Source of the DNA: Candidatus Bathyarchaeota archaeon
GTDB taxonomy: Archaea; Thermoproteota; Bathyarchaeia; 40CM-2-53-6; CAVXDP01
DNA: 64,000 nucleotides
NCBI GenBank assembly: GCA_963760485.1
Contig: CAVXDP010000011.1
Location: forward strand, 574-64,573
Direction of reading: 5' to 3'
Both the position numbers and the translations under genes were made by a program. The notes under the pieces were generated by a model. The model searched no databases, was not told the origin of the DNA, and was given only the letters and a program-made list of their open reading frames with translations. This document shows, piece after piece, positions 1,803 to 53,087 of the stretch; the first letter of the stretch is position 1, and each line of letters opens with the position of its first letter.

Positions 1803-2300
1803 TTATTTTGTGTGTGTGCGCACCAGGGTATACACATTCGATGGAGAGCATATCACTACCTGCTGCGTGCATAATCTCTTTCGAGTGCTGCCTACGTACT
1901 TGTCCCAGACTTCGTTGGTTTGCTTTGAGTCTTGCTGTCTGGTTGGTGCACGAATAATTTTGTACTTTACCTTGAATGTCATGTCTAATCTGGTCTTTCT
2001 CTGGCCGAGCCTCGTTAACCTGTAATCACCAATTTCATCATTTTCCTGTCCAGCTAGATCCAAGTGCCAAGCGTTCGGTGGGCGCAGTGCCACGATACGA
2101 ACGGCACTGATGTTCTTGTCTTTTCGTTTGTGTGTGGAGACGTAGATGACTCGTCGTGCCGTCTTCTGCAGAATGATTCTCTTGATACTTGAACCCCAGA
2201 TCTTGTTGTCATCCTCTTTGAAGTCAACACACCAATCGTAAACGAACTTTAGAGGAGCGTTGATTACTTTCGATACGTGAAACGTATGACTCCCGGCCAA
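1803..2300 (-). CDS. SRPBCC (START/Bet v1/polyketide-cyclase-like) domain protein
   Basis: 165-aa ORF. The motif VINAPLKFVYDWCVDFKEDD is typical of SRPBCC ligand-binding proteins. Confidence 0.45.
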   Translation of the reverse strand: MAGSHTFHVSKVINAPLKFVYDWCVDFKEDDNKIWGSSIKRIILQKTARRVIYVSTHKRKDKNISAVRIVALRPPNAWHLDLAGQENDEIGDYRLTRLGQRKTRLDMTFKVKYKIIRAPTRQQDSKQTNEVWDKYVGSTRKRLCTQQVVICSPSNVYTLVRTHTK

Positions 2301-2369
2301 TTGTTGGATTCCTTACCCTTCAGATGAATGTAGATGATGCTTGAGGCTTTAAGGTGAACTCAAGGTGTG

Positions 2370-2408
2370 ATAGAAAGAGCTAAACAGTATTGTGAAGGTC
2401 CATCATTT
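2370..2408. repeat. 39-bp direct repeat, copy A (atagaaagagctaaacagtattgtgaaggtccatcattt)
   Basis: Matches copy B at 5167..5205 with 3 mismatches in 39 nt. Both copies are intergenic. Confidence 0.7.
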
Positions 2409-2666
2409 TCTACAGGCCGTAGATGTTACATCTATTTTCTCATGTCACGTTTGTTTGACCAGATATGGCATCATGTGCTTGGTGGAACGTTGGTTAGAGA
2501 CTGTTTCGCCTACGACTAAGACATAGATATGGCAGACATTCAAGTCGATACGGCTCGCAATTCACATGAGCTTCGAGATTTGGCACGGTCCATCCAAGAG
2601 AAAGGAAAGTATACAAGAAGGTTGCAAGCAGACTCCTAGCAAGTTGATGATGGAGTTTAACTGAAA

Positions 2667-4693
2667 GTGCCACATGGAACGTCAAATCAATATCGAAGAC
2701 CGAAAAAGATCACAGTGCATACTACACGCAGCAGTCACGTGAATGAACGCAAGCGAACCGAGAAAACACTGAAGGAACAGTACCCAACGCTTCGCGCGAT
2801 AATTGACAGCGCCGATGCACTAATCTTTTCTGTGGACACTCAATACTGCTATACGAGTTTTAACAGTGCTCATGCTACTGTGATGAAGAAGATTTATGGC
2901 AAGAATATCGAAATGGGCAGAAGCCTACTGGATTACATGACTGTGCCAGAAGATCGTGAGAAGGCTAAGCGAAACCTCGACCGTGCACTCGCTGGACAGA
3001 GTCTGGTGGAGGAAGCATATTCTGGAGAGGAAGGGCTGTCCCGACGGTATTTCCAAGTTTCACACTACCCCATCAGTGAAACAGACGAGAATGACATAGG
3101 CGTGGCAGTGCTAAGCAAAGACGTTACCGAGCTCAAGAAGGCTGAGGATGCACTACGAGGAAGTGAGAAGAATTACAGGATTGTTAGCGAGAATATCCCG
3201 GTGGCGGTTTATGCAGCGTTACCAGATGAACACTCTACAAACACATTCACTGCTGGAAGAATCGAGGAACTGACAGGTTACTCGACAGAAGACTACGTGA
3301 AAGACCAATATTATGGTCCAAAATTATTCATAAAGACGATAGAGAACATGTTCTTAAACAATTGAATGAAGATCTGAGAAACAAGACTCCTTTCGAAATA
3401 GAGTATCGGATAATTGCGAAAGATGGTTCTGTCAAGTGGATAAGAGACAAAGCGTCACCTATGCTCAACAATAATGGAGAAGTCACTGGAATCAACGGAT
3501 TCATGGAAAACGTGACTGAGCGAAAGAGATTGGAGGAAGAGCTGAAGAAACACATCGCGCGTCTGGAAGAACTAGTTGAAGAACGCACTGCGAAGCTTAG
3601 GGAAAGCGAAAGAAGATTCAGGGAAATAGCTGAACTCCTACCAGAAAGCGTGTTCGAAACAGATGAGAAAGACAATATCACTTTTTTCAACAAGACTGCA
3701 GTCGAAACATTTGGTTACACTGCGAATGAAATTGCGAATGGATCAATGCACTTCAAGCGGTTGCCCCCGAAGATAGAGGAAGAGCTGAAGAGGATATTCG
3801 AAGGGGAATGAGTGGTGAACATCTGGACCCATTGAATACGAGGGGCTGAGAAAAGATGGCACAACGTTTCCTATGATCGTCGGCTCAACGCGCATCTTTC
3901 GTGATGGTAAACTGGTAGGTCGGCGAGGTTTTGCCGTTGACATTGCTGAGCGGAAACAGATGGAGGAGAAGCTTCGAAAAGCTGAACGGTTTGCGGGAAT
4001 TGGTGAGGCGGCTGCCGATGGTTGGACATGACCTGCGTAATCCTTTGCAGGTTATTGTTAACAGATTGTTCTTGGGAAAGAGAGCTGTTGAGAAATTATC
4101 CTCACCCTATTCTGAGGTTGCAGAGAAACTAGGTTTGACGGAATTGTTTGCTGAGCTTGAGTATCAGACAAGTTACATGAATAAGATTGTTTCTGACATT
4201 CAGGATTACGCGAAACCAGTAACGCCTGAGCTGGTCAGTAAGAGAATAAACAAGCTTGTCAATGAGACATTCTCAACGATTCCAGTTCCAGCCAACGTGA
4301 AAGTAAGCAGGGAGATTGACGAGAACCTTCCAGAGTTGATGGTGGATCCTGGGTTGATGAGGCGAGCCTTGACAAACCTGATTAGGAATGGGATTCAGGC
4401 TATGCCTAAGGGAGGCAAACTCACCGTGAGAGCATCAAAAGCAGATGAAGCGGTCTTCATCAGAGTCCAAGACACGGAGAAGGCATCCCCAAGAGAACTT
4501 GGACAAGGTCTGGAGCCCCCTATTCACTACGAAGGCTAAAGGTGCGGGACTCGGTTTGGCAGTCTGTAAACGCTTGATCGAAGCCCATGGCGGCACAATA
4601 AGTGTTGAAAGTAATGTAGGCGAGGGATCAACGTTCACGGTTAAGCTACCGTTAGACATCTTGCGCGACCCTAACGAGCCGGTAGTTGAGTAA
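2667..4693 (+). pseudogene. multi-PAS sensor histidine kinase (PAS-PAS-HisKA-HATPase_c), disrupted by >=5 frameshift/stop lesions
   Basis: Four consecutive ORFs (2667..3365, 3362..3811, 3931..4539, 4445..4693) plus an unlisted in-frame segment ~3828..4018 together encode a contiguous PAS/PAC-HisKA-HATPase architecture. The HisKA motif is MVGHDLRNPLQ and the HATPase_c motif is [39 protein letters not shown]. Frame changes occur near 3325, 3809-3835, 4017 and 4445-4539. Confidence 0.75.
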
Positions 4694-5059
4694 AGAGGGG
4701 TTTTTGGGATTCTCCCTGAATGTATAGGAGATTATTCTGCGTGTGAAGAGGTGGACAATCTCTGGTGCTGTAGTGAGAAGAGTTCTCCGCGGGTGGTAAG
4801 CCCGAGCGCGCACTGACTAGTACGGGTCGGACGTGTGAATGGTCAATACTCTGGAACGGTTCCTTAGATGCACTTTTCTAGCGAATAGAAGACTGCAGCG
4901 TCTAATTCAACCTGAAAAATGGAAGGTGAAACCTGCCAAGTAGCTTTGAATGAAGACGGGTCAATTCCATGTGAAACTAGATACGAGAAGCGGCTGGGAC
5001 AGCGCTAGAAGTGTGATGAACGCCCAGGACAGTTGACTCAATGTAAAGCGGTGTAGATC

Positions 5060-5167
5060 AAGGAAGGAGAAAGAGAAAGGAGAAGAAGGGAGGGAGGAAA
5101 GAGAAAAGAGGGGAAGGGAAGGAGAGGGGGAGAAAGGAGGAGAAGAGAAGAGAGAAGAGAAAAGAAA
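5060..5167 (+). repeat. 108-nt uninterrupted polypurine (A/G only) tract, GA-rich low-complexity DNA
   Basis: Direct reading shows positions 5060..5167 contain only a and g on the plus strand. The tract directly abuts repeat copy B. Confidence 0.9.
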
Positions 5168-5205
5168 TAGAAAGAGCTAAACAATACTGTGAAGGCCCAT
5201 CATTT
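5167..5205. repeat. 39-bp direct repeat, copy B
   Basis: 36/39 identity with 2370..2408. The two copies bracket the decayed histidine-kinase locus. Confidence 0.7.
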
Positions 5206-5216
5206 ATGATCTTCCA

Positions 5217-5873
5217 TTGCCAGATGTGAACTCCCGCGAGCCTGTGAAAGTCGTTTCATTTGACATTGATGGAACTCTAGCTGACGAAAGATTCAGTCGC
5301 CTGGTTTGGGAAGAAGTGATTCCTAGGATTTATGCACGGAAAGAAAACATTGATGCGGAAAGTGGCAAGAGACATGTTTACAAAGAATACTCCAAGATTG
5401 GGAAAGAAAGACTCGAGTGGTATGATATACAATATTGGTTCCAACATTTCGGGCTTAATCAAGATTGGAGAGAGCTCTTGGAGAGTTACAAGCATGAAGT
5501 ACACCTCTACCCTGAAGTACCCTCGGTCTTGAGGAAACTGGAACCCCATTACGTTTTGATTGTAGTTACAAATGCAGCCAAGGAATTCGCGAAGATTCTA
5601 ACTAAGGACATTGAGAATTACTTCTCGCATATTTTCTCGGCTACAAGCGACTTCAAGGTGCTGAAGAGTTCACCTCGCCTCTACGAATTGGTATGCGAGC
5701 GGTTGGGAGTCACACCTGACGAGTTAGCTCATGTAGGTGACAATCGCAAATTCGATTATTTGGTTCCGAGAACCCTGGGAGTAAAGTCGTATCTCCTTGA
5801 CAGGACAAGAAGCCTATCAAGCGAGTTCATACTTAAGAATCTCCAGGATTTCTGCAGTCGAATCGGCGTCTGA
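5217..5873 (+). CDS. HAD-superfamily hydrolase
   Basis: Motif I VSFDIDGTLAD is present. The core motifs VTNAAKEF and VGDNRKFD are typical of HAD phosphatases. Confidence 0.6.
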   Translation: MPDVNSREPVKVVSFDIDGTLADERFSRLVWEEVIPRIYARKENIDAESGKRHVYKEYSKIGKERLEWYDIQYWFQHFGLNQDWRELLESYKHEVHLYPEVPSVLRKLEPHYVLIVVTNAAKEFAKILTKDIENYFSHIFSATSDFKVLKSSPRLYELVCERLGVTPDELAHVGDNRKFDYLVPRTLGVKSYLLDRTRSLSSEFILKNLQDFCSRIGV

Positions 5874-5879
5874 ATAGCG

Positions 5880-6426
5880 GTGAGATATTGCTACAACATT
5901 CGCATCATCCAAATTCCAGAACCAAACAAACTAAAGATCAAAGAGGCTATCTCAGTAGTGGTACAAAGTATTGGAAATTACCATCAGAAATGCAACGAGA
6001 TCAGATTTCCAGCAATCGAGAAGTTAGCGTCAGAACTTGTCGAGGATATCGATAATACTGAAGGAATCAATGCCTCTCTCTGTTTACTAAGAACTTGCTT
6101 CGCTCTTTTAAGACAGTGCTAATTCGAATTTCTTGATCGCAGAATCAGAAGAAGCCATTGTCGGGTTCATACACTTCACAACTAGAAGAACACTCTTGCA
6201 TGATGGGCCATCTGGCTTGATCGATGAAGTCGTTGTCTCAAAGCAATATCGCGAAAAGTCTATTGGAAAACGGCTAGTTCTTGGCGGCATTTAAGAAATG
6301 TAAACAACTAGGGTGTTGCGAAATTGAGGTGAGTACTGAAAAGAAGAACAAAAAAGCGATAGAGTTCTACAGAGCTTGTGGTTTTCAAGAGCGTGGTATA
6401 CTCTTGGAGATGGACATTGACGAATA
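5880..6426 (+). CDS. GNAT family N-acetyltransferase (two frameshifts)
   Basis: Three collinear frames encode the GNAT N-terminus, then the core (EAIVGFIHF…VVSKQYREKSIGKRLV), then the C-terminus (EFYRACGFQERG). Frame changes lie near 6120 and 6295. Confidence 0.5.
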
Positions 6427-7176: not shown

Positions 7177-7965
7177 TCACTGACGTGGTTGAAAAATGAA
7201 TGTGCAATACTCGTGTCCTTTGGTCATGCATTCTTCTTCCTTTACGAGAGTGGGTTGACCAAACACGCTACTCAATAGTCCCTCCAGATATCCTCTGAAG
7301 AAGTGGCTTCCAACCTGTGTCATCTTGCCGTCTATGCGAAGACATTCGAAGAGATCGTGCACCCTTATCTTGCCAGTTGCCCTAGTTTCATCGAACTCCA
7401 GTATCTCAGGTATTCCCCAGCCCTTAGCCACCCTTCCCGACAAGAAGACGTCTAACACATTTTTTCCTGTTAAGCCATACTTATCTCTGATAGCCTCCAC
7501 CTTACTGGTCCCTGCAACTAGGCCCATATGATACAACACGGAAGAAGCAGGAGGACCGAACATTTCGCGAAGTTGATGAAACATGGCAGATATTGTCCGA
7601 ACTGTAAGGATGATACATCTCTCGTCTATGGCTAGGACAGGGAAATGAACTTCATCCACGATTAGGCCTTCAATCTTCGCTTCATGAATCTTAACTTGTG
7701 AGACCACATTGAGCTTACTAACCTCCTCAGTCAAGCGTTCTGGGTCAATATCGGCCTCAGTGATGTCAGCAATGAAGCTGAAGAGGGCGGTAGGTTTTTC
7801 AGGATACGCTGTTACAAATCCAGAGCATAGATTGATGCCGAGTCTTGCTAGCTCGGTTGAGGTTTCTGCCAGTGCCCCTTTTACGTTCTTCATTTCAATT
7901 TGAAACTCAACTAGCCGTCTGTTGGGAGAGTATACGCCCATGAAGAGGTCTTTCTTATGTAGCAT
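7177..7965 (-). CDS. ACT-domain plus V4R-like (hydrocarbon-binding) domain protein
   Basis: The N-terminal ACT-like segment is VEFQIEMKNVKGALAETSTELARLGINL. The C-terminal half resembles V4R small-molecule-binding domains. Confidence 0.45.
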   Translation of the reverse strand: MLHKKDLFMGVYSPNRRLVEFQIEMKNVKGALAETSTELARLGINLCSGFVTAYPEKPTALFSFIADITEADIDPERLTEEVSKLNVVSQVKIHEAKIEGLIVDEVHFPVLAIDERCIILTVRTISAMFHQLREMFGPPASSVLYHMGLVAGTSKVEAIRDKYGLTGKNVLDVFLSGRVAKGWGIPEILEFDETRATGKIRVHDLFECLRIDGKMTQVGSHFFRGYLEGLLSSVFGQPTLVKEEECMTKGHEYCTFIFQPRQ

Positions 7966-8283
7966 ACAAAGCCCCTAAACATAGTACTCAGTACATGTCT
8001 GTATACCTTTTCTTTAGCTTTCTTACTTGTTCTCCTGCTACTCCAAGGGAACGTGCAACACCATCAATAGGAGAACGCTTGGCCGGTTTCAATGAGAAAA
8101 GGTCCATGATCATTGCCAGAGTCAGCTTGAAATGGGGAACGTACTAGGCACACTGCCACAGATCTCGAATGTAAAAGCAAGCTCTCTTTCAGAACCGTCT
8201 CATTACTAGAGTCATTCATATACTTCCTGCTTGCGAGGCTGTCACCTTCCCCTTTTCCCGCAGGTCACATTCAGCTCAACTAT

Positions 8284-8481
8284 ATGACACATCAAGTGTT
8301 GTTCGAGGAAAGAGGTGCATCCATGGTGCATAAGATTACGATTACGGAGGAAGTTTACAAGAGAATTGAAGCTCAAGCTCAAAAAGAAGGCGTCTCAGCT
8401 TCAAAACTAGCTGAGAAACTTCTCTTGGAAGTCATAACGCCGAAAGCAATGTCTTGTCCCAGATGTGCCTTCAGATTCTGA
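8284..8481 (+). CDS. small ribbon-helix-helix (CopG-like) protein
   Basis: 65-aa ORF. HKITITEEVYKRIEAQAQKEGVSASKLAEKLL has an RHH beta-strand/helix pattern. Confidence 0.3.
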   Translation: MTHQVLFEERGASMVHKITITEEVYKRIEAQAQKEGVSASKLAEKLLLEVITPKAMSCPRCAFRF

Positions 8482-9021
8482 TTAAACGACCGGCAAACAG
8501 AATTTGTCATTCGTCGTATTGCTGAGGTAGAGATCACATTTCTCAGGTTCATTGAACCCACCCTCATATGGGAAGCTTGGTGGATTGCGCAAGTGCCTAC
8601 GCGATTAAGCTTGCTCCAGCCTCTACCACATGACCATATGCGCTGGAAAATATTGAATGAAGATGCTTCTTGTTGAATGAGTGACTGTGGGATGAGGAAT
8701 ACCGCAGATACTCGAGTTCGATCTGCGGATCAAGTATCCACCCCCTTCTCAAGTTCAGGCCATGGCGATCGCCATTAATTCTCAACCCAATAAAGAAATG
8801 TCCAAAATCATCTTGTTTCTCGATTACGCGATATTCTATTCTTGTTGCAATGTCGTCGCCATTTACGTACGTAAATGCCTATGTAAGCATATGCCCGCAA
8901 CAATAATGTCGTTAACAATTGAGTCGACAACGATTATGTCGTTACTTGACATCGTTCACACTCCAATTTATTGGAGACAGTGATATAGCAATTTGTTATC
9001 GAGCGAAATGAGCATGCCGAG

Positions 9022-9459
9022 TTATGCCAATTCTCCCTTTGTAATGTCTTTGATCCTTTCACGCCAGTAGCTTGCGAGCATTTCGAGCTTGTTTGAGAAG
9101 ATGTCACTGAGCTGGGCTGGTTCATTTCGACGAACCCGGCTTAAGAGCCCACTTCGCATCATGGCCTGCCAGGTTTGACTTAGTGTCCGCGCTGAACAAT
9201 GTCTTTCCTTTATGATCTTAGGCGCCAAGTCCCTGTACAACTCGACGCGATAGGTTTTCATACGGCTCATTTCACGGAGAATCGCTTCGGCGAGTTGTGC
9301 CTTCCTAGGATTAAACGGAAAGAGCATAGTACAGAATACTCTCAGGTCTCCTATGCTGGTTCTCTGGGCATCGATCTTTGCGGTGATGTATCCTCTCCTT
9401 TTCATATAGTCTGCCCAGTACTCTTTGTCTTTCTTCGTCTCACTAAACCGCGAAGCCAA
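9022..9459 (-). CDS. hypothetical protein
   Basis: 145-aa basic protein with no family recognised. Confidence 0.3.
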   Translation of the reverse strand: MASRFSETKKDKEYWADYMKRRGYITAKIDAQRTSIGDLRVFCTMLFPFNPRKAQLAEAILREMSRMKTYRVELYRDLAPKIIKERHCSARTLSQTWQAMMRSGLLSRVRRNEPAQLSDIFSNKLEMLASYWRERIKDITKGELA

Positions 9460-9726
9460 GTGTGCCTACCTTACCCCATGGTGTGGTATGGTGGGATATC
9501 TTAGGTTTTGTCCCACATGGTGGTAATTGGGCCATTCCCCCACTAAAACATCTAGCTAACCCACGAGCCAAACAAATAATGCCTATGAATTATCCCATAG
9601 GGTGGATATGTCGCCCACAAAAAAAGTCCGATATATCGCACTCAAGTCGTGTATCTGCCCTCAGGGGGCTTCATTGGTTGTGTCTGGGCTGGCAAAGGTG
9701 GGAGAGGCGGGGGTATATTCAGAGTC

Positions 9727-10062
9727 TTAGATAGAAGAATAGCTTCGGCCATGGACGCATTCGAAACTGCTTGAACTACAGCTATGGGAGGCGGCTTTTG
9801 CTGCCTTGCTTTCATCCATCATCTTCTTGATCTCGGCACTGTCTCCTGTGATATACGCTCGCCCCCTAACACTGATTTGAGCGATTGATGGAACAAAGTT
9901 GACGGTAAATACAAACGGAGCCTCAGCCGCAACGTCTGATTTCTCTTCTAACCCCATGATATTGATATTCACATTAATGTGAATCTGAGGCGGCATCGGC
10001 TTGCTTACATCCCACAAGCGTTCTCCCGACAAGTTCGTAACAGAAACGTTCACAGTCAACAT
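9727..10062 (-). CDS. hypothetical protein
   Basis: 111-aa ORF with no family recognised. Confidence 0.25.
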   Translation of the reverse strand: MLTVNVSVTNLSGERLWDVSKPMPPQIHINVNINIMGLEEKSDVAAEAPFVFTVNFVPSIAQISVRGRAYITGDSAEIKKMMDESKAAKAASHSCSSSSFECVHGRSYSSI

Positions 10063-10072
10063 CCCGAGTCAT

Positions 10073-10384
10073 CTACCGCCTCGTACGAGTACCCACCCGC
10101 TTTAAACCTTGCTTCCCCAAACGTTTTTTCCTCCTCCTACCACGAACTAGCTTCCGAGACATACTTACGCTACGTTTTGTCCCAAACTTCCCCCTGCGCC
10201 AAGACAACTCCACAAGGAGTCTCTCTCCAGCTATCTTCACAGCAACATCGTCCCCCTCCAAAAAAGGGAAGCTGGAGTCATCCGTGAGTTTTGTCGGAAG
10301 ATAGATTCTAGGAGAACGGTAAACAATTCCTTTGTTCCCACGCTTTCTAGCGACCGCCATCTTCGTAATGATCTTCGTAACCAT
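10073..10384 (-). CDS. AbrB/MazE-like (swapped-hairpin) DNA-binding protein, putative
   Basis: IYLPTKLTDDSSFPFLEGDDVAVKIAGERLLVE resembles an AbrB/SpoVT-type barrel. It is followed by a highly basic R/K tail. Confidence 0.3.
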   Translation of the reverse strand: MVTKIITKMAVARKRGNKGIVYRSPRIYLPTKLTDDSSFPFLEGDDVAVKIAGERLLVELSWRRGKFGTKRSVSMSRKLVRGRRRKKRLGKQGLKRVGTRTRR

Positions 10385-10629
10385 TTACATTACCTTATAC
10401 ATAGACATTTACTTATGACTATAAAAGGCTTGCCCACGCTGAACACCTGTCGCAATCAAGAAAACAGAAGATCAAAAATTCTATGCCGAAACTTCAAAAT
10501 CGAAAGAAAACGGGAGAAGCCTATGGAAAGCGCCTGCCGATATCTGAGGGTGACACTTCCAACAAGTCTCGTAGACGCAGATTCGCTGGACTTGAACGTA
10601 GGTAACGAGAGCCGGGAGGATGTATGGGT

Positions 10630-10983
10630 CTATTCCAGTTCTGATGCTACTAGGTAGACGCCCGAAATGATGAAGAAAATCAGGGCTAATGGTGCGAACC
10701 AGGAGACAAAGCCTGATACCAGAAGTATCATCAGGAACACGATGTCAATCCATCCAGTTCTAGATTTCGGGAGCAGTTCTCCAGGTGCCATGCCCAGTCG
10801 TCTCGCGACATAGAGAATTGCGATCGCACTTGCAGCGAGCAGGGTTAGGTGGAAGAATGTGGCAACGAATAGAACTCCACCAATGGGTTTTGTGCCACCA
10901 CCATATGGGACTGGAATTCCCTTATACATGATTGGCATCGCCAGAGTTTCTAGGGCTAGGGCGATGGCCAAGACTACGACCAC
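10630..10983 (-). CDS. integral membrane protein (3-4 TM helices)
   Basis: Hydrophobic 117-aa ORF. Confidence 0.35.
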   Translation of the reverse strand: MVVVLAIALALETLAMPIMYKGIPVPYGGGTKPIGGVLFVATFFHLTLLAASAIAILYVARRLGMAPGELLPKSRTGWIDIVFLMILLVSGFVSWFAPLALIFFIISGVYLVASELE

Positions 10984-11493
10984 TGAGACTATGAGGATGA
11001 CTTTTTCTCTGTTCGTCTCGGGTCCGCTCCGGTTTTCGCAGATTGTGCTGAAGCTGTGTTTAAAAACATACCTGTTGTTGGGCGTTCACTCTTGAGCCTT
11101 TTACAGCGTTTGATGCAACAAGATATATTTGTACTGCAGAGAAATACCCATCCGGACGAGGGTATACAGCATTTGTCTGATGACGCAAAGCACATACTTG
11201 AAGTGAAACAAGCTGAGAAGCCTTTGAAAGCTTCCAAGGAAAGCCTTCAGTCTCTGAAGGGCGTCGCCGGAGGTAAGCAGATTGCGCGGATGAAAAAAGA
11301 GGCCGTGGACTGCCCAGTCATGGCCAAGACAGTCTGTTTTGTTGAGTGTTTCGCCTGCAAAAACTTCCTCAGAAGACTTAAGGGAACAGCCCACTGCAAA
11401 GGAGACGCATTACCATAGTCGCCACCAAGAGGACATGTTGATAGCCTCATTCGAAAAAACAAGGAAGGAGAGTCCGCAGGTTCTAAGAAACCG

Positions 11494-11781
11494 TTACTGC
11501 ACGACTTCTCCCGTAGCAAATCTATTTCCTACACGAGTAACCTTCACTTTGACGTGGTCCCCAGGTTTTGTGTTTGGAATGAAAATCACGAATCCTTGAA
11601 CCCGCGCGATCCCTTCACCGCGTCTACTCGTCTCTTTTACGTCAACTTCGTATTCCTTACCTTCTTCCACAGGTTTCTCAAATGGTGCGTCGCTGAAACT
11701 TCGTCTTTCAAAACTCATACGTCTCACCTCGCTCAGTTTGGAATAGCTAGCTACGGGAGAATACAATAGCGGCGGATTCAA
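11494..11781 (-). CDS. TRAM-domain protein
   Basis: The C-terminus GEGIARVQGFVIFIPNTKPGDHVKVKVTRVGNRFATGEVV is a canonical stand-alone archaeal TRAM domain. Confidence 0.7.
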   Translation of the reverse strand: MNPPLLYSPVASYSKLSEVRRMSFERRSFSDAPFEKPVEEGKEYEVDVKETSRRGEGIARVQGFVIFIPNTKPGDHVKVKVTRVGNRFATGEVVQ

Positions 11782-11973
11782 AAACGGCTCGCTAGCTCTT
11801 CCCCTTCGTACCTAACTTCGTTTCTAGCGAAGCCGGATTGTTTGATATAAAGTTTGTCCGATTGATATCGATTGCCAGAATTGTCTGATGTTCCCACGCC
11901 TGATGACCACCTTCAAGCAAGTTTTTTATATGAAAGGAACGCTTTCAGTCGCAATTTCGGGAGCGTGAGGAAA

Positions 11974-14128
11974 ATGACATTCGAAACCACCGTGTTGTGG
12001 GTTATAATCGGTACAGCTCTGGGTGCGCTTCTGTACGCTGCGCTTTTGGCACGCCATACTCTAAAGGAGCCAACTGGAACTGGCAAAATGCTTGAAGTTT
12101 GGAAAGCAATATCTGAAGGGGCTAATGCCTATCTCAAGAAGCAATTCAGGTCAATAGTTCTGATAATCGCTGTTCTCACAGTTGCACTTTATGCTTCCGC
12201 CGCTCTCGTGGGAGGGTCACCTTCGATCTCTATCGGAAGAGCAGCAGCGTTTCTGATGGGTGTGACTTTTTCTGGACTCGTCGGCTATCTTGGAATGAAT
12301 ATGGCAGTCAAAGGAAACATTCGTGTCACCGAGGCCTCACGCAGAAGTTTTCGGGATGCCCTAAGGATCGCCTACAGATCAGGAACAATAACTGGAATGT
12401 TGACAGATGGCCTAGGGCTTTTTGGAGGCACCTTGATCTTCATGATATACTTCAAGGATGCTCCACAGGTTCTATTGGGCTTTGGCTTAGGTGGTACACT
12501 GATCGCCCTGTTCATGCGAGTTGGTGGAGGAATCTACACAAAGGCTGCAGATGTTGGAGCTGACCTTGTTGGCAAGGTTGAGAAAGGCATTCCTGAAGAT
12601 GACCCCCGCAACGCAGCCGTAGTCGCTGATCTAGTAGGAGACAATGTAGGCGACTGTGCCGGGATGGCGGCGGATATCTTCGAGTCATACGAGGTCACAA
12701 TAGTATCAGCCATGATACTTGCCCTAGCTCTACTGCCTTTCGACGTGAAATGGATCATGTTTCCACTTATGGTCAGAGCTATCGGTGTAGTAAGTACGAT
12801 AGTTGGAACCTACTTTGTCTCTCTGTGGCCTCAGAGTCTTACTAAAGGTGATGCCTTCAAAGCCATGGACTTGTCATATGACCTCTCCGCGGCAATATCC
12901 GTTGTGAGTTTCTTCTTACTCGCAGAATTCTACGTTCACGATCTCAGAGTTTTTGTAGCAACTGCCGTTGGAATATTCCTAGCGATTGGATTCAACAAGA
13001 TAACAGACCACTTCACAAATCCCAATAAGAAACCCATTGATGAACTTGCACGGGCATCAAGAACAGGCGCTGCAACAGAGATACTCGGCGGTTTGTCACT
13101 GGGGTTCGAGGTAACCGTTTGGAACCTGTTGATAATATGCATCACGATATTAATCTCAGTCTCCGTTTTCTCGGGTTCAACAATCGTATTCATGATGTAT
13201 GCCATCGCTCTTTCTGGAATAGGCATGCTTACCCTAACCGGTAATAACGTCTCAATGGATGCATTTGGCCCCATAGTAGACAATGCCAATGGTATAGGCG
13301 AGATGGCTGGTGTGGAGCCTGCCGCCAGGAAGATCCTGGCCGATCTTGACGCATCTGGGAATACCACCAAAGCGGCGACGAAAACAATAGCTATTGCATC
13401 GGCTGTAATAGCAGCTGTTTCGTTGTTCGGTGCGTTTACCGAGACAACAGGGCTGCAAACGATTGGACTGAACATTGCTGACCCAATTGTCTTCGTTGGA
13501 TTACTGGTTGGAGGAGCTCTACCGTTCTTGTTCAGCTCAGGCGCGATACGTGCGGTAAGTAGAGCTGCAGGATCTATCATCGAAGAAGTGAGGACGCAGT
13601 TCAAAGTCCCCGGTGTGATGGAGGGAACTGTTAAACCTGATTACGCAAAGGTCGTAACAATCTGCACCTCAGCAGCCCAGAGAGAACTGGTAGGTCTTGC
13701 GATCATGTCAATACTCGCGCCACTGGCGATCGGACTCTTGCTCAAGCAGGCGAGCACTAGGAGCCTTTCTAGCAGGCATAATCGTGACAGGCCAGCTACT
13801 AGCAGTTTTTATGGCATCATCAGGAGCCTCTTGGGACAACGCCAAGAAGAAGATTGAAGATGGCTATTATGGCGGAAAGGGTTCTGAAAACCACAAGGCA
13901 TCAGTGACCTGCGACACTGTGGGCGACCCACTGAAAGACACTTCTGGCCCTGCTCTGAACCCCATGATAAAAGTCATCAACCTGATCTCGCTCATCTTCG
14001 CGCCACTGATCATCAAACTCGCCAGCCAACCACTGATCTCCGTACCTCTCGGCATTGTGTTTGTAGTGGCAATTGGAATTGCGGTCTGGTACGGAAAGCG
14101 AGAAGGCGCATTCACAAAGATTCAATAG
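11974..14128 (+). CDS. hppA: membrane-bound proton/sodium-translocating pyrophosphatase (one frameshift near ~13745)
   Basis: The 661-aa ORF and the following 143-aa ORF ([31 protein letters not shown]…[18 protein letters not shown]) are collinear V-PPase sequence. The likely start is the ATG at 11974, which is preceded by GTGAGG. Confidence 0.85.
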
Positions 14129-14269
14129 CAGAACACGGCAAGACAGCCTGGTTTGGAGGGGCCCAATACCCCAAAACATGGCCCATTCCAACGGCTCTAA
14201 ACGTTATAAGTGAAATCAATTCCAAGGTACGACTAAACAATCAGAGCATTACTGGCAGTGTGTACGAAG

Positions 14270-15564
<1,295 letters not shown>

Positions 15565-27194: not shown

Positions 27195-27957
27195 CTAGAG
27201 TTCACCGAGAGTAACATTATCGACTCCATCAATCTTTTCTCCAGACCCAGTTGCATTCAATATCTCTGCTCTAGCCCAACTAGCCAACCAACTTAACAAT
27301 TCCTTTGCCATCTGAAGCTTTCTTATCTTCTTTGAGCCTGCACGATAATCCATTATGTGACCCGGCTTAGAATATTTTCCCGCAACCGTGCCAAAATCCA
27401 TTCCCAACAGGATTACGCGTTTGGCCCCAACCTCCTCCGCCAGGAAAGCCAGCTCTGTCACCATCTGTGAAACCTCCAAAATTGTACACGTGGGGACGCG
27501 CCTCTACCTGAGTCGATCCAAGTACACTCCCAAACTTTGGAACATACCTCATAAGAGAGATCTCGTTATCTCCGTGAGCGTGAATAACCACCACCGACCC
27601 TTTCTTACTTGCATCCACTAAATCTCCAACATCACCATCTAGATCCGTTACCACAATTTCCGGAACAAGATGGTAGCCCCTCAAGAGTGAAGTGGTCGCA
27701 CCGTCTGCTGCAATCGATATCGACCTGCCTTTCAGCCCCGATGTGAGATACTCATTGAGGTTTCTCTCAAGCGAGGGACCGCAACCGAATACGACTGCGT
27801 TCTCACGCTCGACTATTCTCTGGACAGCCGAGGGAAGAATTGCTTTGCCCTCTAACAACTTCTCCAGGAGATCTGCTGACTTCGCGTCCTCGGACCAATC
27901 AAAAGAGAATGCAGTGAGAATCCTTTCGTACCAAGGGCGCCATTTGTCAAAATCCAT
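27195..27957 (-). CDS. mptE: archaeal 6-hydroxymethyl-7,8-dihydropterin pyrophosphokinase (one frameshift near ~27420)
   Basis: The N-terminal 196-aa ORF and the C-terminal 94-aa ORF overlap in different frames. Together they give a ~250-aa MptE/DUF115-type protein (…VVFGCGPSLE…VVTDLDGD…). Confidence 0.6.
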
Positions 27958-48454: not shown

Positions 48455-49207
48455 ATGGCAAAGCTTCCACAACTAGTTGTTGAAGGTGACTCTCTCCCCG
48501 AAGTATGGGAGAAAAGCCTTTCAGCTCTTTTTCATCAGGGAATCAGATCCTACAAGGAATCCTACAGACATGCTGAAGAGAAGATTGAAGTCGTAGAGGC
48601 GTCCATGAAGATGATTGTGAGGGACCCTCTTCAGGAGCCGATGCTACACATGGGATGTGAGGGTCTCGGCAGCTTGAGGGAATACGTGGACGAGGTCTTG
48701 GACGGATCGAAAGATGATTATGTGGACCGTGGATTCTGGGACTACACCTATCATAGGCTTCTTAGGAATTATGAGGTCTACGACAAACCTGGTGTAGACC
48801 AGTTGAAGTATGTCATCGAGAAACTCAGCGCCACACCATTCTCGAATAGAGCTCAAGCAACTACGTGGATGCCTTGGAAGCATCCCACAGTTAAGGGCCC
48901 TCCATGTCTTCAGAGGATTTGGTGCAAGAGATTTGGAGATGAACTGGAAATGCATACGAGTTGGAGGAGCCGTGACTCCTACAACGCGGCCTTCATGAAT
49001 ATGTACGCGATTATTCAACTCCAGAAAGGCTTCGCGGAAACAATTGGCGCGAAAGTCGGCCAGTACGTCGACGATTCGGACAGCTACCACATTTACTCTT
49101 ACAACGTTAGGAGTGTAGAGAAGCTTCTAGACACTGCCGAGACACTCAGGAAGAAAGGTGCCTCACCATACGAGTACAGCTCGCTGCTAATCAGAATGTC
49201 AAAATAG
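48455..49207 (+). CDS. thyA: archaeal-type thymidylate synthase (ThyA-like, likely methylene-H4MPT dependent)
   Basis: 250-aa protein. A TS-like FSNRAQATTWMPWKH (the NRR..W…P motif) and a conserved Cys (PPCLQRIW) are present. Confidence 0.5.
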   Translation: MAKLPQLVVEGDSLPEVWEKSLSALFHQGIRSYKESYRHAEEKIEVVEASMKMIVRDPLQEPMLHMGCEGLGSLREYVDEVLDGSKDDYVDRGFWDYTYHRLLRNYEVYDKPGVDQLKYVIEKLSATPFSNRAQATTWMPWKHPTVKGPPCLQRIWCKRFGDELEMHTSWRSRDSYNAAFMNMYAIIQLQKGFAETIGAKVGQYVDDSDSYHIYSYNVRSVEKLLDTAETLRKKGASPYEYSSLLIRMSK

Positions 49208-49835
49208 GCAGACGTCGCTTTGCCACATGAGAAGAAATGAGAATGCTCATCAGCACAGTCGCCACGTAGATTGGCATGTCGATCCAGAACTCGGGGATTG
49301 GAGTCGAAGGTTCAACTGATACGTGACTAGGCGTAGCCGCCGAATCCATGTACAATACCACATTGGGGTCAGGAATCAGAGTGTTCTTCACAGGCGTTAG
49401 TTGCAATGCAAGCGCCCCTCCAGCCGGCACTTGAAATGTGCTCGTGAAGAGGTTCAGACTGTACTCGTTGGGGAATTGTCTAATGCCAGTAATGTTACCT
49501 TGAGCCATTACTTGGAAACTCCCCGCAGACAGATAGCCAATAGCGACACGCAATGATGTTGACATGACGGTATACCCCAGCCAGAGAGATATTGTCCAGG
49601 TGCTCACATCTATTGATATATCTGAAGACAGTACGCCCGTTCTGAAATAGTACGACACGTAGCCCAAGTCAAGAGGATAGGAGTACTGCGTCGGCTGATT
49701 CTCATCCATCAGGTATTCAAAAGGATTCTCAAAAGTCCACTTATGGAGGTAGAAGACCTGAGCTGGACTTGCCTTCACCGAACCCATCGACAATGCCAGT
49801 AGGACTAGAAGACCGATGACCACTATCGCCCTCAT
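49191..49835 (-). CDS. secreted/surface protein with N-terminal signal peptide and C-terminal TM anchor, hypothetical
   Basis: Signal-like N-terminus MRAIVVIGLLVLLALSMGSVKASP. The C-terminus has a hydrophobic helix followed by KRR. Confidence 0.35.
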   Translation of the reverse strand: MRAIVVIGLLVLLALSMGSVKASPAQVFYLHKWTFENPFEYLMDENQPTQYSYPLDLGYVSYYFRTGVLSSDISIDVSTWTISLWLGYTVMSTSLRVAIGYLSAGSFQVMAQGNITGIRQFPNEYSLNLFTSTFQVPAGGALALQLTPVKNTLIPDPNVVLYMDSAATPSHVSVEPSTPIPEFWIDMPIYVATVLMSILISSHVAKRRLPILTF

Positions 49836-51304: not shown

Positions 51305-53087
51305 CTAGATGTTTGAGGACCCTTCTGAGCCGATCTTTTTTAGTTGGCTTCTGTAAATCTCCAGAATCTCATCTCGCGTCGTCGCATCCTCTGGAGCCTT
51401 ATCATTTCGCCAATTCCCCGTGAATCTTGGAAACCTAAGAGCTAGTCCTGCATCTTTCTTCGCGGTATCTCTTGCACACGTATGCAAAGGAGAAAGAGTT
51501 ATCTCGTCTGCAGCGACCTCGAGCACTAGCCCAGGAGAAAACCAAATGTCGGGAGTCATTAGGCATACGACACGTGCGTGCCTATGCTGGATCTCATAGG
51601 GTTTCAACATTCCAGGGAGTTTCGATAAATCCTCATCTGTGAAACCGCTTCCGAGTTTACATATGGTTTCGAACAGATCCTGTTTGGGATCGTAGGTGGC
51701 TGTGAGAAGCGCTCCATAGGACCCCGCTCTCTTGCCTCGTCCATAGAATGCACCTATCGGAACTAAGTCGAATGTGTCAGCTATCTCCGCTTTGTACGAT
51801 CTCTTGTATTTGATCCAAGTCCATCCTCTCGCTCCAGCCTTGTAATCGGAGTCAGGGCCAATTGACTTGACCATCAAGCCTTCACATCCATCGGCCACAG
51901 CTTGATCCATATACACGTCAAGTCTGGTTGGATCGTCTGTCACGAGTTGATCTGACAGGGTTGCATGTGGATTCTTTTTCACAATTTGCTCAAGCAGCCG
52001 TCGCCTCTCTGGATATGGGGCGATCGTGCAGTCTTTTCCATCTAGATAGAGTACATCAAAGAGGTACACATGAACGGGAACCTCTTCTTCCATTCGTTCA
52101 ATCTCGTACTTTCGACCTCTCCTCTGCGAGATCATCTGGAAGGGCAGCATATCACCTGTGTTCGGGTCCACGGCAACGCATTCACCCTCAACCACAATCT
52201 CATTCGTATTGAGAGATTCTGTGATATATTGCAGCGCGTCGGGAAACTGTTCAGTCACGTTCTCCAATCTCCTAGAGAACAAACACGACTCACGTGGCGA
52301 GATGTGTGCCTGCAATCTTATCCCGTCATACTTGTACTCTGCCGCTCCCTTACCTCGCAAGTTTCTCAAGAATCTCGTTAGCGGTCGAGAGTCTCTCCGC
52401 AAGCATAGGCCTTATCGGGCGACCGACCTTAACTCTAAATTGTTTGACGGTTTCTAGGCTTTCATTCGCAACAATCTTCGCCACCAGTCCTAGATCTGAT
52501 GAGAGGTTGTACGCTCGCTCCAAATCATTTCGAGCCTCTTTGCCTCCCCCATAAGCGATCGCAAGAGCGTCGAGGATAGTCATGTCTGCGATCCCAAGCC
52601 TTAGTCTTCCAAGTGCGGTACGCATAATGTATCGAGCTTCCAGCGGTGAAGCATCGTGGAGTAGACTCGACAGAAATCTAGTCTTGACATCGATAGATCC
52701 ACTCCCCGTTGCGTGAGCTATCTTCTCGAAACAGTCATAGACTATTTCAACGGACAATTCCCTTCTAAGTAGTGTTGATTGAGATTTCTTTGCGGCGAAG
52801 ATTTCGGCTGTCTTTCCTAGATCACCAGTCTGTTTGAAGCTCTTTTCAACACTTTCCTCAGATCTTCCCGAGATAGATACTATTGATTTGATCGCAAGCT
52901 TCTCAGCGATGCCCAGTTCAATCCCGACAAAACCAGGATAGATTTTGCCCTGAGTCAGGTAGATGAGCTTGTCAATAGAGATCCTTGGGGACTGTTTGAG
53001 GATGGCGACTAGCAAATCAGTCATCTCCAGCCTCTTCGTTGTTCCCTCGATCTTCTCGTAGGCTTCAGCGAGCATTGAGTACTTCAA
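51305..53087 (-). CDS. lig: ATP-dependent DNA ligase (one frameshift near ~52355-52400)
   Basis: The N-terminal DNA-binding domain ORF (52350..53087, ending …PMLAERLSTANEILEKLAR) and the adenylation/OB ORF (51305..52402, with the KYDGIR motif I) are collinear in different frames. Confidence 0.8.

What the first reader, a model, noticed from the sequence alone, without database searches (positions are those of the whole stretch)
5060..5167. 108-nt perfect polypurine·polypyrimidine tract
Positions 5060-5167 contain only A and G on the plus strand, a GA-rich stretch with irregular GGAG/GAAA units. It immediately precedes repeat copy B in a ~520-bp ORF-free gap. Tracts of this length and purity are rare in prokaryotes. 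They can adopt triplex (H-DNA) structures, are hotspots for replication slippage and recombination, and in archaea sometimes mark integration or rearrangement junctions.
Basis: seen in the sequence. Interest (0 to 1): 0.6.

Follow-up and report, generated by a model that had tools for sequence, protein, structure and literature searches.

The report
Purine tail ending a strain-specific gene insertion
The 108-base all-purine stretch is real in the sequence and is the random-looking "tail" of a 2.76-kb, one-gene insertion that landed in, and duplicated, the promoter of a neighbouring gene in an uncultured archaeon; close relatives lack it, so it looks like an insertion scar made by untemplated synthesis, not a conserved structural signal.

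Summary
Observation confirmed. Window 5060-5167 is 108 nt of A/G only (57 A, 51 G). The next-longest purine or pyrimidine run is 20 nt in the window and 31 nt in about 2 Mb of comparison loci.

Three relatives (L001, L002, L169) have the gene at 1803-2300(-) directly next to the HAD-hydrolase gene (5217-5873), with one copy of a 39-mer between them. The window therefore carries a 2,758-bp insertion (2409-5166) bounded by a 39-bp direct repeat (2370-2408, 5167-5205). The insert holds a leader, one PAS/histidine-kinase gene on the + strand, a 366-nt trailer and the purine tract, which abuts repeat copy B.

The A/G order cannot be told from random: no periodicity, no mirror symmetry, no template found.

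Best reading: an untemplated purine tail on the 3' end of an inserted cassette. It may be an exosome-type RNA tail captured by reverse transcription, or DNA added by a template-independent polymerase. The tests here cannot tell these apart.

H-DNA and slippage readings are not supported. Repeat copy A looks like a different allele, which points to recombination through the 39-mer.

Caveat: the assembly is indel-prone, so an artefact is not excluded (about 15%).

The parts
5060..5167 (+). 108-nt pure A/G tract (tail) at the right end of the insertion; base 5167 (A) is shared with the first base of repeat copy B
   Evidence: random order shown; no mirror symmetry
2370..2408 (+). 39-nt direct repeat, copy A (left boundary of the insertion); carries 3 window-unique substitutions (2387 G, 2390 T, 2399 T)
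5167..5205 (+). 39-nt direct repeat, copy B (right boundary); identical to the single copy in L002; ends 11 nt before the HAD start codon
2370..2385 (+). Invariant 16-mer ATAGAAAGAGCTAAAC inside copy A (second copy at 5167-5182). Found in the fetched loci only upstream of HAD orthologues, 50 nt before the start codon. Candidate BRE/TATA core promoter.
2409..5059 (+). Templated body of the insertion, absent from L001, L002 and L169: leader 2409-2741, kinase gene, trailer 4694-5059
   Evidence: host-like composition
2742..4693 (+). PAS-PAS-HisKA-HATPase_c sensor histidine kinase. The reading frame is broken by about 6 single-base indels, mostly deletions in G/C homopolymers. Coordinates of the start are approximate.
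4702..4706 (+). T5 run 9 nt after the kinase stop codon; candidate archaeal terminator signal
   Evidence: sequence; inference from known archaeal oligo-T termination
5217..5873 (+). HAD-superfamily hydrolase gene whose promoter region was the target
1803..2300 (-). Left-flank gene of unknown family; directly adjacent to the HAD gene in relatives

Best explanation
The tract is not a conserved signal. It is the terminal segment of a strain-specific 2,758-bp insertion.

Shown:
- A cassette of leader, one PAS/histidine-kinase gene, a 366-nt trailer and the tract sits between two copies of a 39-bp sequence.
- That sequence occurs once in three related genomes, between the same two flanking genes.
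- The 39-mer is the conserved upstream block (probable core promoter) of the HAD gene. The insertion therefore gives the kinase one promoter copy and leaves the other for HAD.
- The tract is on the sense strand at the 3' end of the cassette, and its A/G order cannot be told from random.

Inferred:
- The tract was made by untemplated, stochastic addition of purines to the 3' end of the cassette's sense strand, before or during integration.
- My leading candidate (about 0.2 absolute) is a heteropolymeric A/G tail added to a read-through kinase transcript by the archaeal exosome, then copied into DNA and inserted like a processed retrocopy. In that model the tail pairs with the purine-rich start of the target (ATAGAAAGAG).
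- Nearly as likely (about 0.25-0.3) is a template-independent DNA polymerase or terminal transferase extending a DNA end.
- The allele pattern of copy A suggests that the cassette reached this particular lineage by recombination through the 39-mer, for example Campbell-type integration of a 2,797-bp circle from a sister lineage.
For: Empty site: L001 107-709 matches window 1805-2408 and L001 671-1381 matches 5167-5877, an exact 39-nt overlap. L002 gives the same result, and L169 has the same synteny with a single 39-mer.

Geometry: the only gene in the insert is on the + strand and the tail is 3' of it.

Randomness: runs test z = 1.6; no autocorrelation at lags 1-60; longest internal repeat 11 nt, as in shuffles; the top tandem-repeat score is reached by 6% of shuffles. 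No two-letter-collapsed template was found in the window.

Host-like composition of the insert: GC 0.464 against 0.472; 48 of 307 host windows are as far or farther in tetranucleotide distance.

Precedent for random purine-rich tails in archaea: exosome-made heteropolymeric tails, for example AAAGGGGGAUAAAAUAAAGA in S. solfataricus (PMC4227792, PMC1635327).

Target: the target starts with 9 purines out of 10.

Promoter reading of the 39-mer: the 16-mer is invariant down to 65%-identity orthologues, lies 50 nt before the start codon, and similar RGCTAAA boxes lie upstream of other genes.

Copy A: 3 window-unique substitutions in 39 nt against 0/565 in the rest of the left flank. All three sites carry states seen in outgroups, and all lie 3' of the invariant 17 nt.
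Against: - No reverse transcriptase, integrase or transposase was found in the ORFs scanned in the window.
- No parent kinase gene was found anywhere. The best matches are 44-57% protein identity and about 76% DNA identity, in coding parts only, so the tail cannot be shown to start where templated homology ends.
- Known exosome tails contain some U/C. Zero pyrimidines in 108 nt is more extreme than the one published example I could read (2 of 20).
- A T5 run right after the kinase stop suggests that most transcripts would end 350 nt before the tail.
- A 39-bp duplication is long for a staggered cut, and the divergent copy A fits recombination better than a target-site duplication made in situ.
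- This is a single instance. The assembly has frameshifts in enolase, DNA ligase and a GNAT gene, so the sequence quality here is imperfect.
Confidence: 0.5

Rival explanations
1. DNA-level filler. A linear or circular DNA carrying the kinase gene was joined to the chromosome by homology on one side (the 39-mer) and an illegitimate joint on the other. A template-independent polymerase, such as a primase-polymerase or other terminal transferase with the usual preference for purines, added about 108 nt at the free 3' end before ligation.
For: - The copy A allele pattern points to DNA recombination through the 39-mer.
- Random purine order.
- No reverse transcriptase in the window.
- Host-like composition of the insert.
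- Terminal-transferase activity of archaeal primases is established knowledge (from memory, not tested here).
Against: Untemplated DNA fillers of about 100 nt are not known to me in prokaryotic illegitimate recombination. No candidate enzyme was identified. This model gives no reason for the tail to sit on the sense strand 3' of the gene, although that orientation has a 50% chance anyway.
Confidence: 0.27
2. Assembly or sequencing artefact. A chimeric or low-coverage long read carrying low-complexity junk was built into the consensus, and the 39-bp 'duplication' is just the overlap of two mis-joined pieces.
For: - The window is indel-prone. Enolase (at least 2 frameshifts), ATP-dependent DNA ligase (1), a GNAT gene (2) and the kinase (about 6) are broken, mostly at G/C homopolymers.
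- Window-unique substitutions, by contrast, are rare. This is the pattern of an unpolished long-read consensus.
- The cassette is seen in no other assembly.
Against: - Both junctions fall exactly on the borders of the conserved 39-mer, and the left junction is clean.
- Copy A differs from copy B by three transitions that match outgroup alleles, which indel-type errors would not produce.
- There is no adapter similarity beyond chance: SMRTbell p = 0.32 against shuffled A/G, and ONT/Illumina adapters at the null level.
- The insert has host composition and a complete, homologous kinase gene.
Confidence: 0.15
3. Functional element of a small mobile cassette or of the host. The purine-pyrimidine tract might act as an H-DNA, R-loop or G-quadruplex roadblock insulating the HAD promoter from read-through, or as a recombination or replication site of a 2.8-kb circular element.
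For: - The tract sits between a gene transcribed towards it and the next promoter.
- Five runs of at least 3 G within 44 nt (5088-5131) could form a G-quadruplex, and a purine-rich transcript would give stable RNA:DNA hybrids (read from the sequence; inference).
- The 39-bp flanking repeats are in the size range of archaeal attachment sites.
Against: - The tract is absent from three close relatives and from all kinase-homologue loci, so it is not conserved.
- No mirror symmetry.
- Random order, with no sign of a selected motif.
- No replication or integrase gene in the cassette.
Confidence: 0.06
4. In-situ expansion of the purine-rich promoter motif (AGAAAGAG) by replication slippage, followed by divergence of the units.
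For: The tract abuts ATAGAAAGAG, and weak tandem-repeat rows exist.
Against: No significant periodicity. Erasing the repeat units while keeping 108/108 purines would need many transitions and no transversions, yet the lineage shows almost no unique substitutions. Slippage also does not explain the 2.65-kb insert next to the tract.
Confidence: 0.02

Closest known systems
Processed retrocopies made by target-primed reverse transcription (LINE-1-mediated retroposition in eukaryotes)
   Same: One promoterless-looking gene copy in the sense orientation, an untemplated tail at its 3' end, flanking direct duplication of the target, and a tail that abuts a target start of matching composition (purine-rich here, A-rich for L1).
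   Different: The tail is a random A/G heteropolymer, not poly(A). The duplication is 39 bp and its two copies look like different alleles. The host is an archaeon, and no reverse transcriptase, endonuclease or parent gene was found.
Heteropolymeric 3' tails synthesised by the archaeal exosome or bacterial/organellar PNPase
   Same: Untemplated, random-order, purine-rich extension at a 3' end. This is the only well-documented archaeal process that makes such sequences (PMC4227792, PMC1635327).
   Different: Those tails are RNA, are described as containing all four nucleotides, and mark RNA for decay. Here the sequence is chromosomal DNA with no pyrimidines in 108 nt.
Archaeal integrative elements flanked by about 40-50-bp attachment-site repeats (SSV-type or pTN3-type, tyrosine recombinase)
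   Same: Direct repeats of about 40 bp flank a lineage-specific insert. The left copy differs from the resident allele only 3' of an invariant core, as expected for a crossover within the core.
   Different: No integrase is present, the target is a promoter rather than a tRNA gene, the element is only 2.8 kb with one cargo gene, and such elements are not known to end in a purine tract.
H-DNA-forming homopurine-homopyrimidine mirror repeats
   Same: Perfect strand asymmetry of purines and pyrimidines over more than 100 bp.
   Different: No mirror symmetry beyond chance (9-nt arms), so the canonical intramolecular triplex is not specifically encoded.

Membership tests
Processed retrocopy (target-primed reverse transcription) | Insert flanked by a duplication of the target site; empty site in relatives | tested here: met
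   A 39-bp duplication; L001, L002 and L169 have a single copy and no insert. However, copy A carries 3 differences that look allelic.
Processed retrocopy (target-primed reverse transcription) | Untemplated tail at the 3' end of the sense strand | tested here: met
   The tract lies 3' of the only gene, on its sense strand, and has random order. The tail is A/G, not poly(A).
Processed retrocopy (target-primed reverse transcription) | Identifiable parent gene, with homology ending at the transcript ends | tested here: inconclusive
   No parent was found: the best hits are 44-57% protein identity and about 76% DNA identity in coding parts only. The lineage is barely sampled, so absence says little.
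Processed retrocopy (target-primed reverse transcription) | A reverse transcriptase/endonuclease source in the genome | tested here: not met
   No RT domain in the window ORFs or stop-free segments scanned. The rest of the genome is not available.
Exosome/PNPase heteropolymeric tail | Random-order, purine-rich sequence | tested here: met
   compare the tail AAAGGGGGAUAAAAUAAAGA.
Exosome/PNPase heteropolymeric tail | Contains all four nucleotides (some U/C) | tested here: not met
   0 pyrimidines in 108 nt. The literature describes tails containing all 4 nt.
H-DNA mirror repeat | Homopurine-homopyrimidine tract | tested here: met
H-DNA mirror repeat | Mirror symmetry with long arms and a short spacer | tested here: not met
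   The best perfect arms are 9 nt; shuffles typically give 8-10.
Tyrosine-recombinase integrative element | Attachment-site direct repeats flanking the element | tested here: met
   39-bp repeats; differences confined to the 3' part of copy A.
Tyrosine-recombinase integrative element | Integrase gene, whole or split at the ends | tested here: not met
   The only domains in the insert are PAS, HisKA and HATPase_c. There is no other ORF longer than 53 aa.
Tyrosine-recombinase integrative element | Target within a tRNA gene | tested here: not met
   No tRNA gene in the window. The target is an intergenic promoter block.
IS element / DNA transposon | Terminal inverted repeats and a transposase | tested here: not met
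   No terminal inverted repeats beyond a 6-nt match; no transposase domain.
Microsatellite / slippage array | A repeat unit with significant periodicity | tested here: not met
Known structured RNA | Match to an Rfam family | tested here: not met
   No hit at gathering thresholds in the window, and none at E <= 1 in 2300-5300. The trailer fold has z = 0.6.

The most novel reading that the evidence does not exclude
The cassette is a natural retrocopy in an archaeon. A kinase transcript received a long purine-only tail from the exosome, was reverse-transcribed, and was inserted at a promoter with duplication of the target. This would be the first evidence that archaeal RNA tails can be fossilised in a genome and that mRNA retroposition creates new gene copies outside eukaryotes.
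Probability: 0.17. Interest if true: 0.9.

Novelty: new variant of a known kind. Interest (0 to 1): 0.58.

Why it matters
If the tract is real, it is a fossil of an untemplated purine polymerisation coupled to the insertion of a gene. That combination is not described for prokaryotes. It would point either to retroposition of a tailed mRNA in Archaea or to an unknown terminal-transferase step in archaeal illegitimate recombination.

It also gives a concrete, searchable signature for finding more cases in archaeal metagenome-assembled genomes: a strain-specific insert, a duplicated promoter-sized target, and a long purine-only run on the sense strand.

On the practical side, it shows how a single insertion can supply an incoming gene with a promoter by duplicating the promoter.

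If it is an artefact, it is a useful warning about low-complexity insertions in long-read metagenome assemblies.

Tried and rejected
- Periodicity or slippage: autocorrelation at lags 1-60, runs test, internal repeats, and Tandem Repeats Finder against shuffles. Nothing above chance.
- H-DNA mirror symmetry: none beyond chance.
- Hidden template: strong/weak and keto/amino two-letter collapses of the whole window gave at most 80/108 matches, against a null maximum of 74-78.
- Sequencing adapters (SMRTbell, ONT, Nextera, TruSeq): no similarity beyond what any A/G string gives.
- Coding potential: no + strand ORF crosses the tract; the only ORF is a 48-aa S/L/P/F ORF on the - strand, judged spurious.
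- Known RNAs: no tRNA and no Rfam hit, even at E <= 1. The trailer is not unusually structured.
- Terminal inverted repeats and sigma-70/intrinsic-terminator scans: nothing meaningful.
- Parent or donor search with a frameshift-repaired kinase: protein database, GTDB genomes and JGI metagenomes gave only paralogue-level hits. The loci of the three closest homologues share coding DNA only.
- Leader and trailer six-frame searches against about 2 Mb of loci: nothing.
- Plasmid and phage collections: no match.
- The 16-mer in viral contigs: 73 hits, none extending into the 39-mer (at most 13 of the remaining 23 positions), which I read as chance.
- Calling the kinase a pseudogene: rejected as unsafe, because housekeeping genes in the window carry the same kind of homopolymer indels.
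- Exact look-up of a window protein to find the source contig: not on record.

Full report
**1. The observation**

Window 5060-5167 is 108 consecutive purines on the + strand (57 A, 51 G), bounded by C5059 and T5168. Chance is excluded. The tract lies in a 523-nt gap (4694-5216) with no ORF above 48 aa. It touches the second copy of a 39-nt direct repeat (2370-2408 and 5167-5205, 36/39 identical).

**2. The host**

The window is a chromosomal piece of an uncultured archaeon.
- It encodes methanopterin-pathway enzymes (Mch, Ftr), F420 ligases, tRNA-intron endonuclease, aIF-2B, H+-pyrophosphatase and others.
- Its glycyl-tRNA synthetase is only about 59-60% identical to the closest named proteins (Candidatus Bathyarchaeia). 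The lineage itself is represented in public data only by a few short contigs.
- No tRNA gene or Rfam family is present.

**3. What the tract belongs to**

The HAD-hydrolase gene just downstream (5217-5873) has near-identical orthologues on three short metagenomic contigs: L001 (97% aa), L002 (88%) and L169 (77%).

In all three, the gene that lies at 1803-2300(-) in the window is directly adjacent to HAD, with a single copy of the 39-mer between them. BLAST makes this exact. L001 107-709 aligns to window 1805-2408, and L001 671-1381 aligns to 5167-5877, so the two alignments overlap by exactly the 39-mer. L002 behaves the same way.

The window therefore carries a 2,758-bp insertion (2409-5166) bounded by a 39-bp duplication. 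The purine tract is its last 108 nt.

**4. Anatomy of the insert**

- 2409-2741 is a leader with no homologue.
- About 2742-4693 is a PAS-PAS-HisKA-HATPase_c sensor kinase on the + strand.
- A T5 run follows the stop codon (4702-4706).
- 4694-5059 is a trailer with no ORF, no homologue, no Rfam hit and no unusual folding (z = 0.6).
- Then comes the tract.

There are no terminal inverted repeats and no transposase, integrase or reverse-transcriptase domains. The composition of the insert (GC 0.464; tetranucleotide distance within the host range) points to the same or a closely related genome as its source.

**5. The tract itself**

Its A/G order is statistically random.
- The runs test gives z = 1.6.
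- No lag from 1 to 60 has autocorrelation above noise.
- The longest internal repeat (11 nt) is the modal value for shuffles.
- The best Tandem Repeats Finder score (109) is reached by 6% of shuffled strings.
- It has no mirror symmetry beyond chance (9-nt arms), so it is not a designed H-DNA element.
- No strong/weak or keto/amino 'collapsed' template exists in the window.
- It does not resemble sequencing adapters more than any A/G string does.

A random, strictly purine sequence is what untemplated, stochastic polymerisation would give. It is not what slippage, duplication or selection would give.

**6. The 39-mer**

Its first 16 nt (ATAGAAAGAGCTAAAC) are invariant even in orthologous loci whose HAD protein is only 65% identical. 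They always start 50 nt before the start codon. In the fetched loci they occur only upstream of HAD orthologues. The 73 exact matches in viral contigs do not extend into the rest of the 39-mer and look like chance. Similar RGCTAAA boxes lie 35-55 nt upstream of other genes in the window.

I read the 39-mer as the core promoter of HAD (inference). The insertion then places one promoter copy in front of the kinase and leaves the other for HAD. Survivorship would explain why the duplicated segment coincides with the promoter block.

**7. An unexpected detail about the repeat copies**

Across 565 nt of the left flank outside the repeat, the window has no substitution that is unique relative to L001 and L002. 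In 711 nt of the right flank it has 3. Copy A has 3 in 39 nt (2387, 2390, 2399); by uniform placement, (39/604)^3 is about 3e-4.

All three sites carry the states found in more distant orthologues: T, T in L169 and L003-5; G in L003-5. All lie 3' of the invariant 17 nt.

Copy A thus looks like another allele of the same site, not like a mutated duplicate of copy B. A single crossover inside the invariant core between the chromosome and a circular (or terminally redundant) cassette from a sister lineage would give exactly this pattern. So would later gene conversion of copy B by DNA from empty-site strains. In either case, the primary event that joined cassette, tail and 39-mer may have happened in a sister lineage.

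Two of the three differences also turn the 10-nt quasi-palindrome ACAATACTGT into its exact reverse complement. I cannot say whether that is meaningful.

**8. Mechanism**

Shown:
- an insertion with a flanking duplication;
- a tail on the sense strand 3' of the only gene;
- random purine order;
- a purine-rich target start (9 of 10).

Inferred: the tail was added without a template.

The only well-documented archaeal source of long, random, purine-rich polymers is tailing of RNA 3' ends by the exosome (example tail AAAGGGGGAUAAAAUAAAGA). That makes a retrocopy of a tailed read-through transcript the most specific model, and the geometry matches processed retrocopies.

Against it:
- no reverse transcriptase was found;
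- no parent gene was found;
- a likely terminator lies 350 nt before the tail;
- published tails contain some pyrimidines;
- the copy A pattern favours DNA recombination.

A template-independent DNA polymerase acting on a DNA end is about equally likely. My estimates are:

| Reading | Estimate |
|---|---|
| Untemplated tail at a genuine insertion junction | about 0.5 |
| ... of which RNA route | about 0.2 |
| ... of which DNA route | about 0.27 |
| Artefact | about 0.15 |
| Functional element | about 0.06 |
| Slippage | about 0.02 |

**9. Quality caveat**

The kinase frame is broken about six times, mostly by single-base deletions in G/C homopolymers. Enolase, ATP-dependent DNA ligase and the GNAT gene downstream of HAD are broken in the same way, while substitutions unique to the window are rare.

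This is the signature of an indel-prone (probably long-read) consensus. It has three consequences:
- the kinase cannot be called a pseudogene;
- the exact length of the tract is uncertain by a few bases;
- a chimeric-read artefact cannot be excluded without reads.

The clean left junction, the borders that fall exactly on the conserved block, and the allele-like differences in copy A all argue that the structure is biological.

**10. Comparison and novelty**

The structure works most like a processed retrocopy (tail plus target duplication), and partly like an attachment-site-flanked integrative element. It fails defining features of both: no poly(A), reverse transcriptase or parent gene for the first; no integrase or tRNA target for the second. 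It is not an H-DNA mirror repeat, a microsatellite or a transposon.

I know of no described prokaryotic insertion that ends in an untemplated purine heteropolymer of about 100 nt. I rate it a new variant of a known kind, from a single and not yet read-verified instance.

Noticed in passing
window 2384-2393 vs 5181-5190: Within the 39-nt repeat, the 10-nt quasi-palindrome ACAATACTGT (copy B) reads ACAGTATTGT in copy A. That is its exact reverse complement, produced by two symmetric transitions. It could be a small template-switch inversion, an allelic difference or coincidence.
   Followed up: partly
window 13697-15564; about 52340-52402; 5874-6424: Housekeeping genes are frameshifted: enolase (at least 2 breaks), ATP-dependent DNA ligase (the EYKYDG motif is in another frame) and a GNAT acetyltransferase (2 breaks). 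The breaks are mostly at G/C homopolymers, which suggests an indel-prone consensus rather than real pseudogenes.
   Followed up: partly
window 5877 onward vs L001 1381 onward: L001 loses all similarity to the window immediately after the HAD stop codon and carries zinc-ribbon (DZR) genes instead. L002 continues like the window up to its contig end. This is a second strain-variable boundary next to the same gene.
   Followed up: no
window 2370-2385, 5167-5182; also upstream of 7177-7965(-), 49191-49835(-), 27367-27957(-): An invariant 16-mer, ATAGAAAGAGCTAAAC, lies 50 nt upstream of HAD orthologues. Similar RGCTAAA-like boxes lie 35-55 nt upstream of other genes. This may be the promoter box of this lineage.
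   Followed up: partly
window 7960-11870: An ORF-poor 3.9-kb stretch with only fragments (ribbon-helix-helix, TRAM domain, a membrane-protein piece). It may be a degraded or badly polished strain-variable region.
   Followed up: partly
window 5088-5131: Five runs of at least 3 G within 44 nt of the tract (GGGAGGG...GGGGAAGGG...GGGGG) fit a loose G-quadruplex motif on the non-template strand of kinase transcription.
   Followed up: no
window 5060-5167 vs whole window: The G fraction of the tract (0.472) equals the G+C fraction of the window (0.472). No collapsed-alphabet template was found, so this is probably coincidence.
   Followed up: yes
window 1893: A single-base insertion unique to the window, relative to L001 and L002, changes the C-terminus of the left-flank gene (165 aa against 147 aa in L001).
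   Followed up: no
L245, L246, L247 vs window 2760-3075 and 3939-4650: The kinase is mosaic. Its N-terminal PAS part is about 75% DNA-identical to one community paralogue (L245). Its kinase core is about 76% identical to two others (L246, L247). Some of these contigs come from the same ENA project as the empty-site relative L001.
   Followed up: partly
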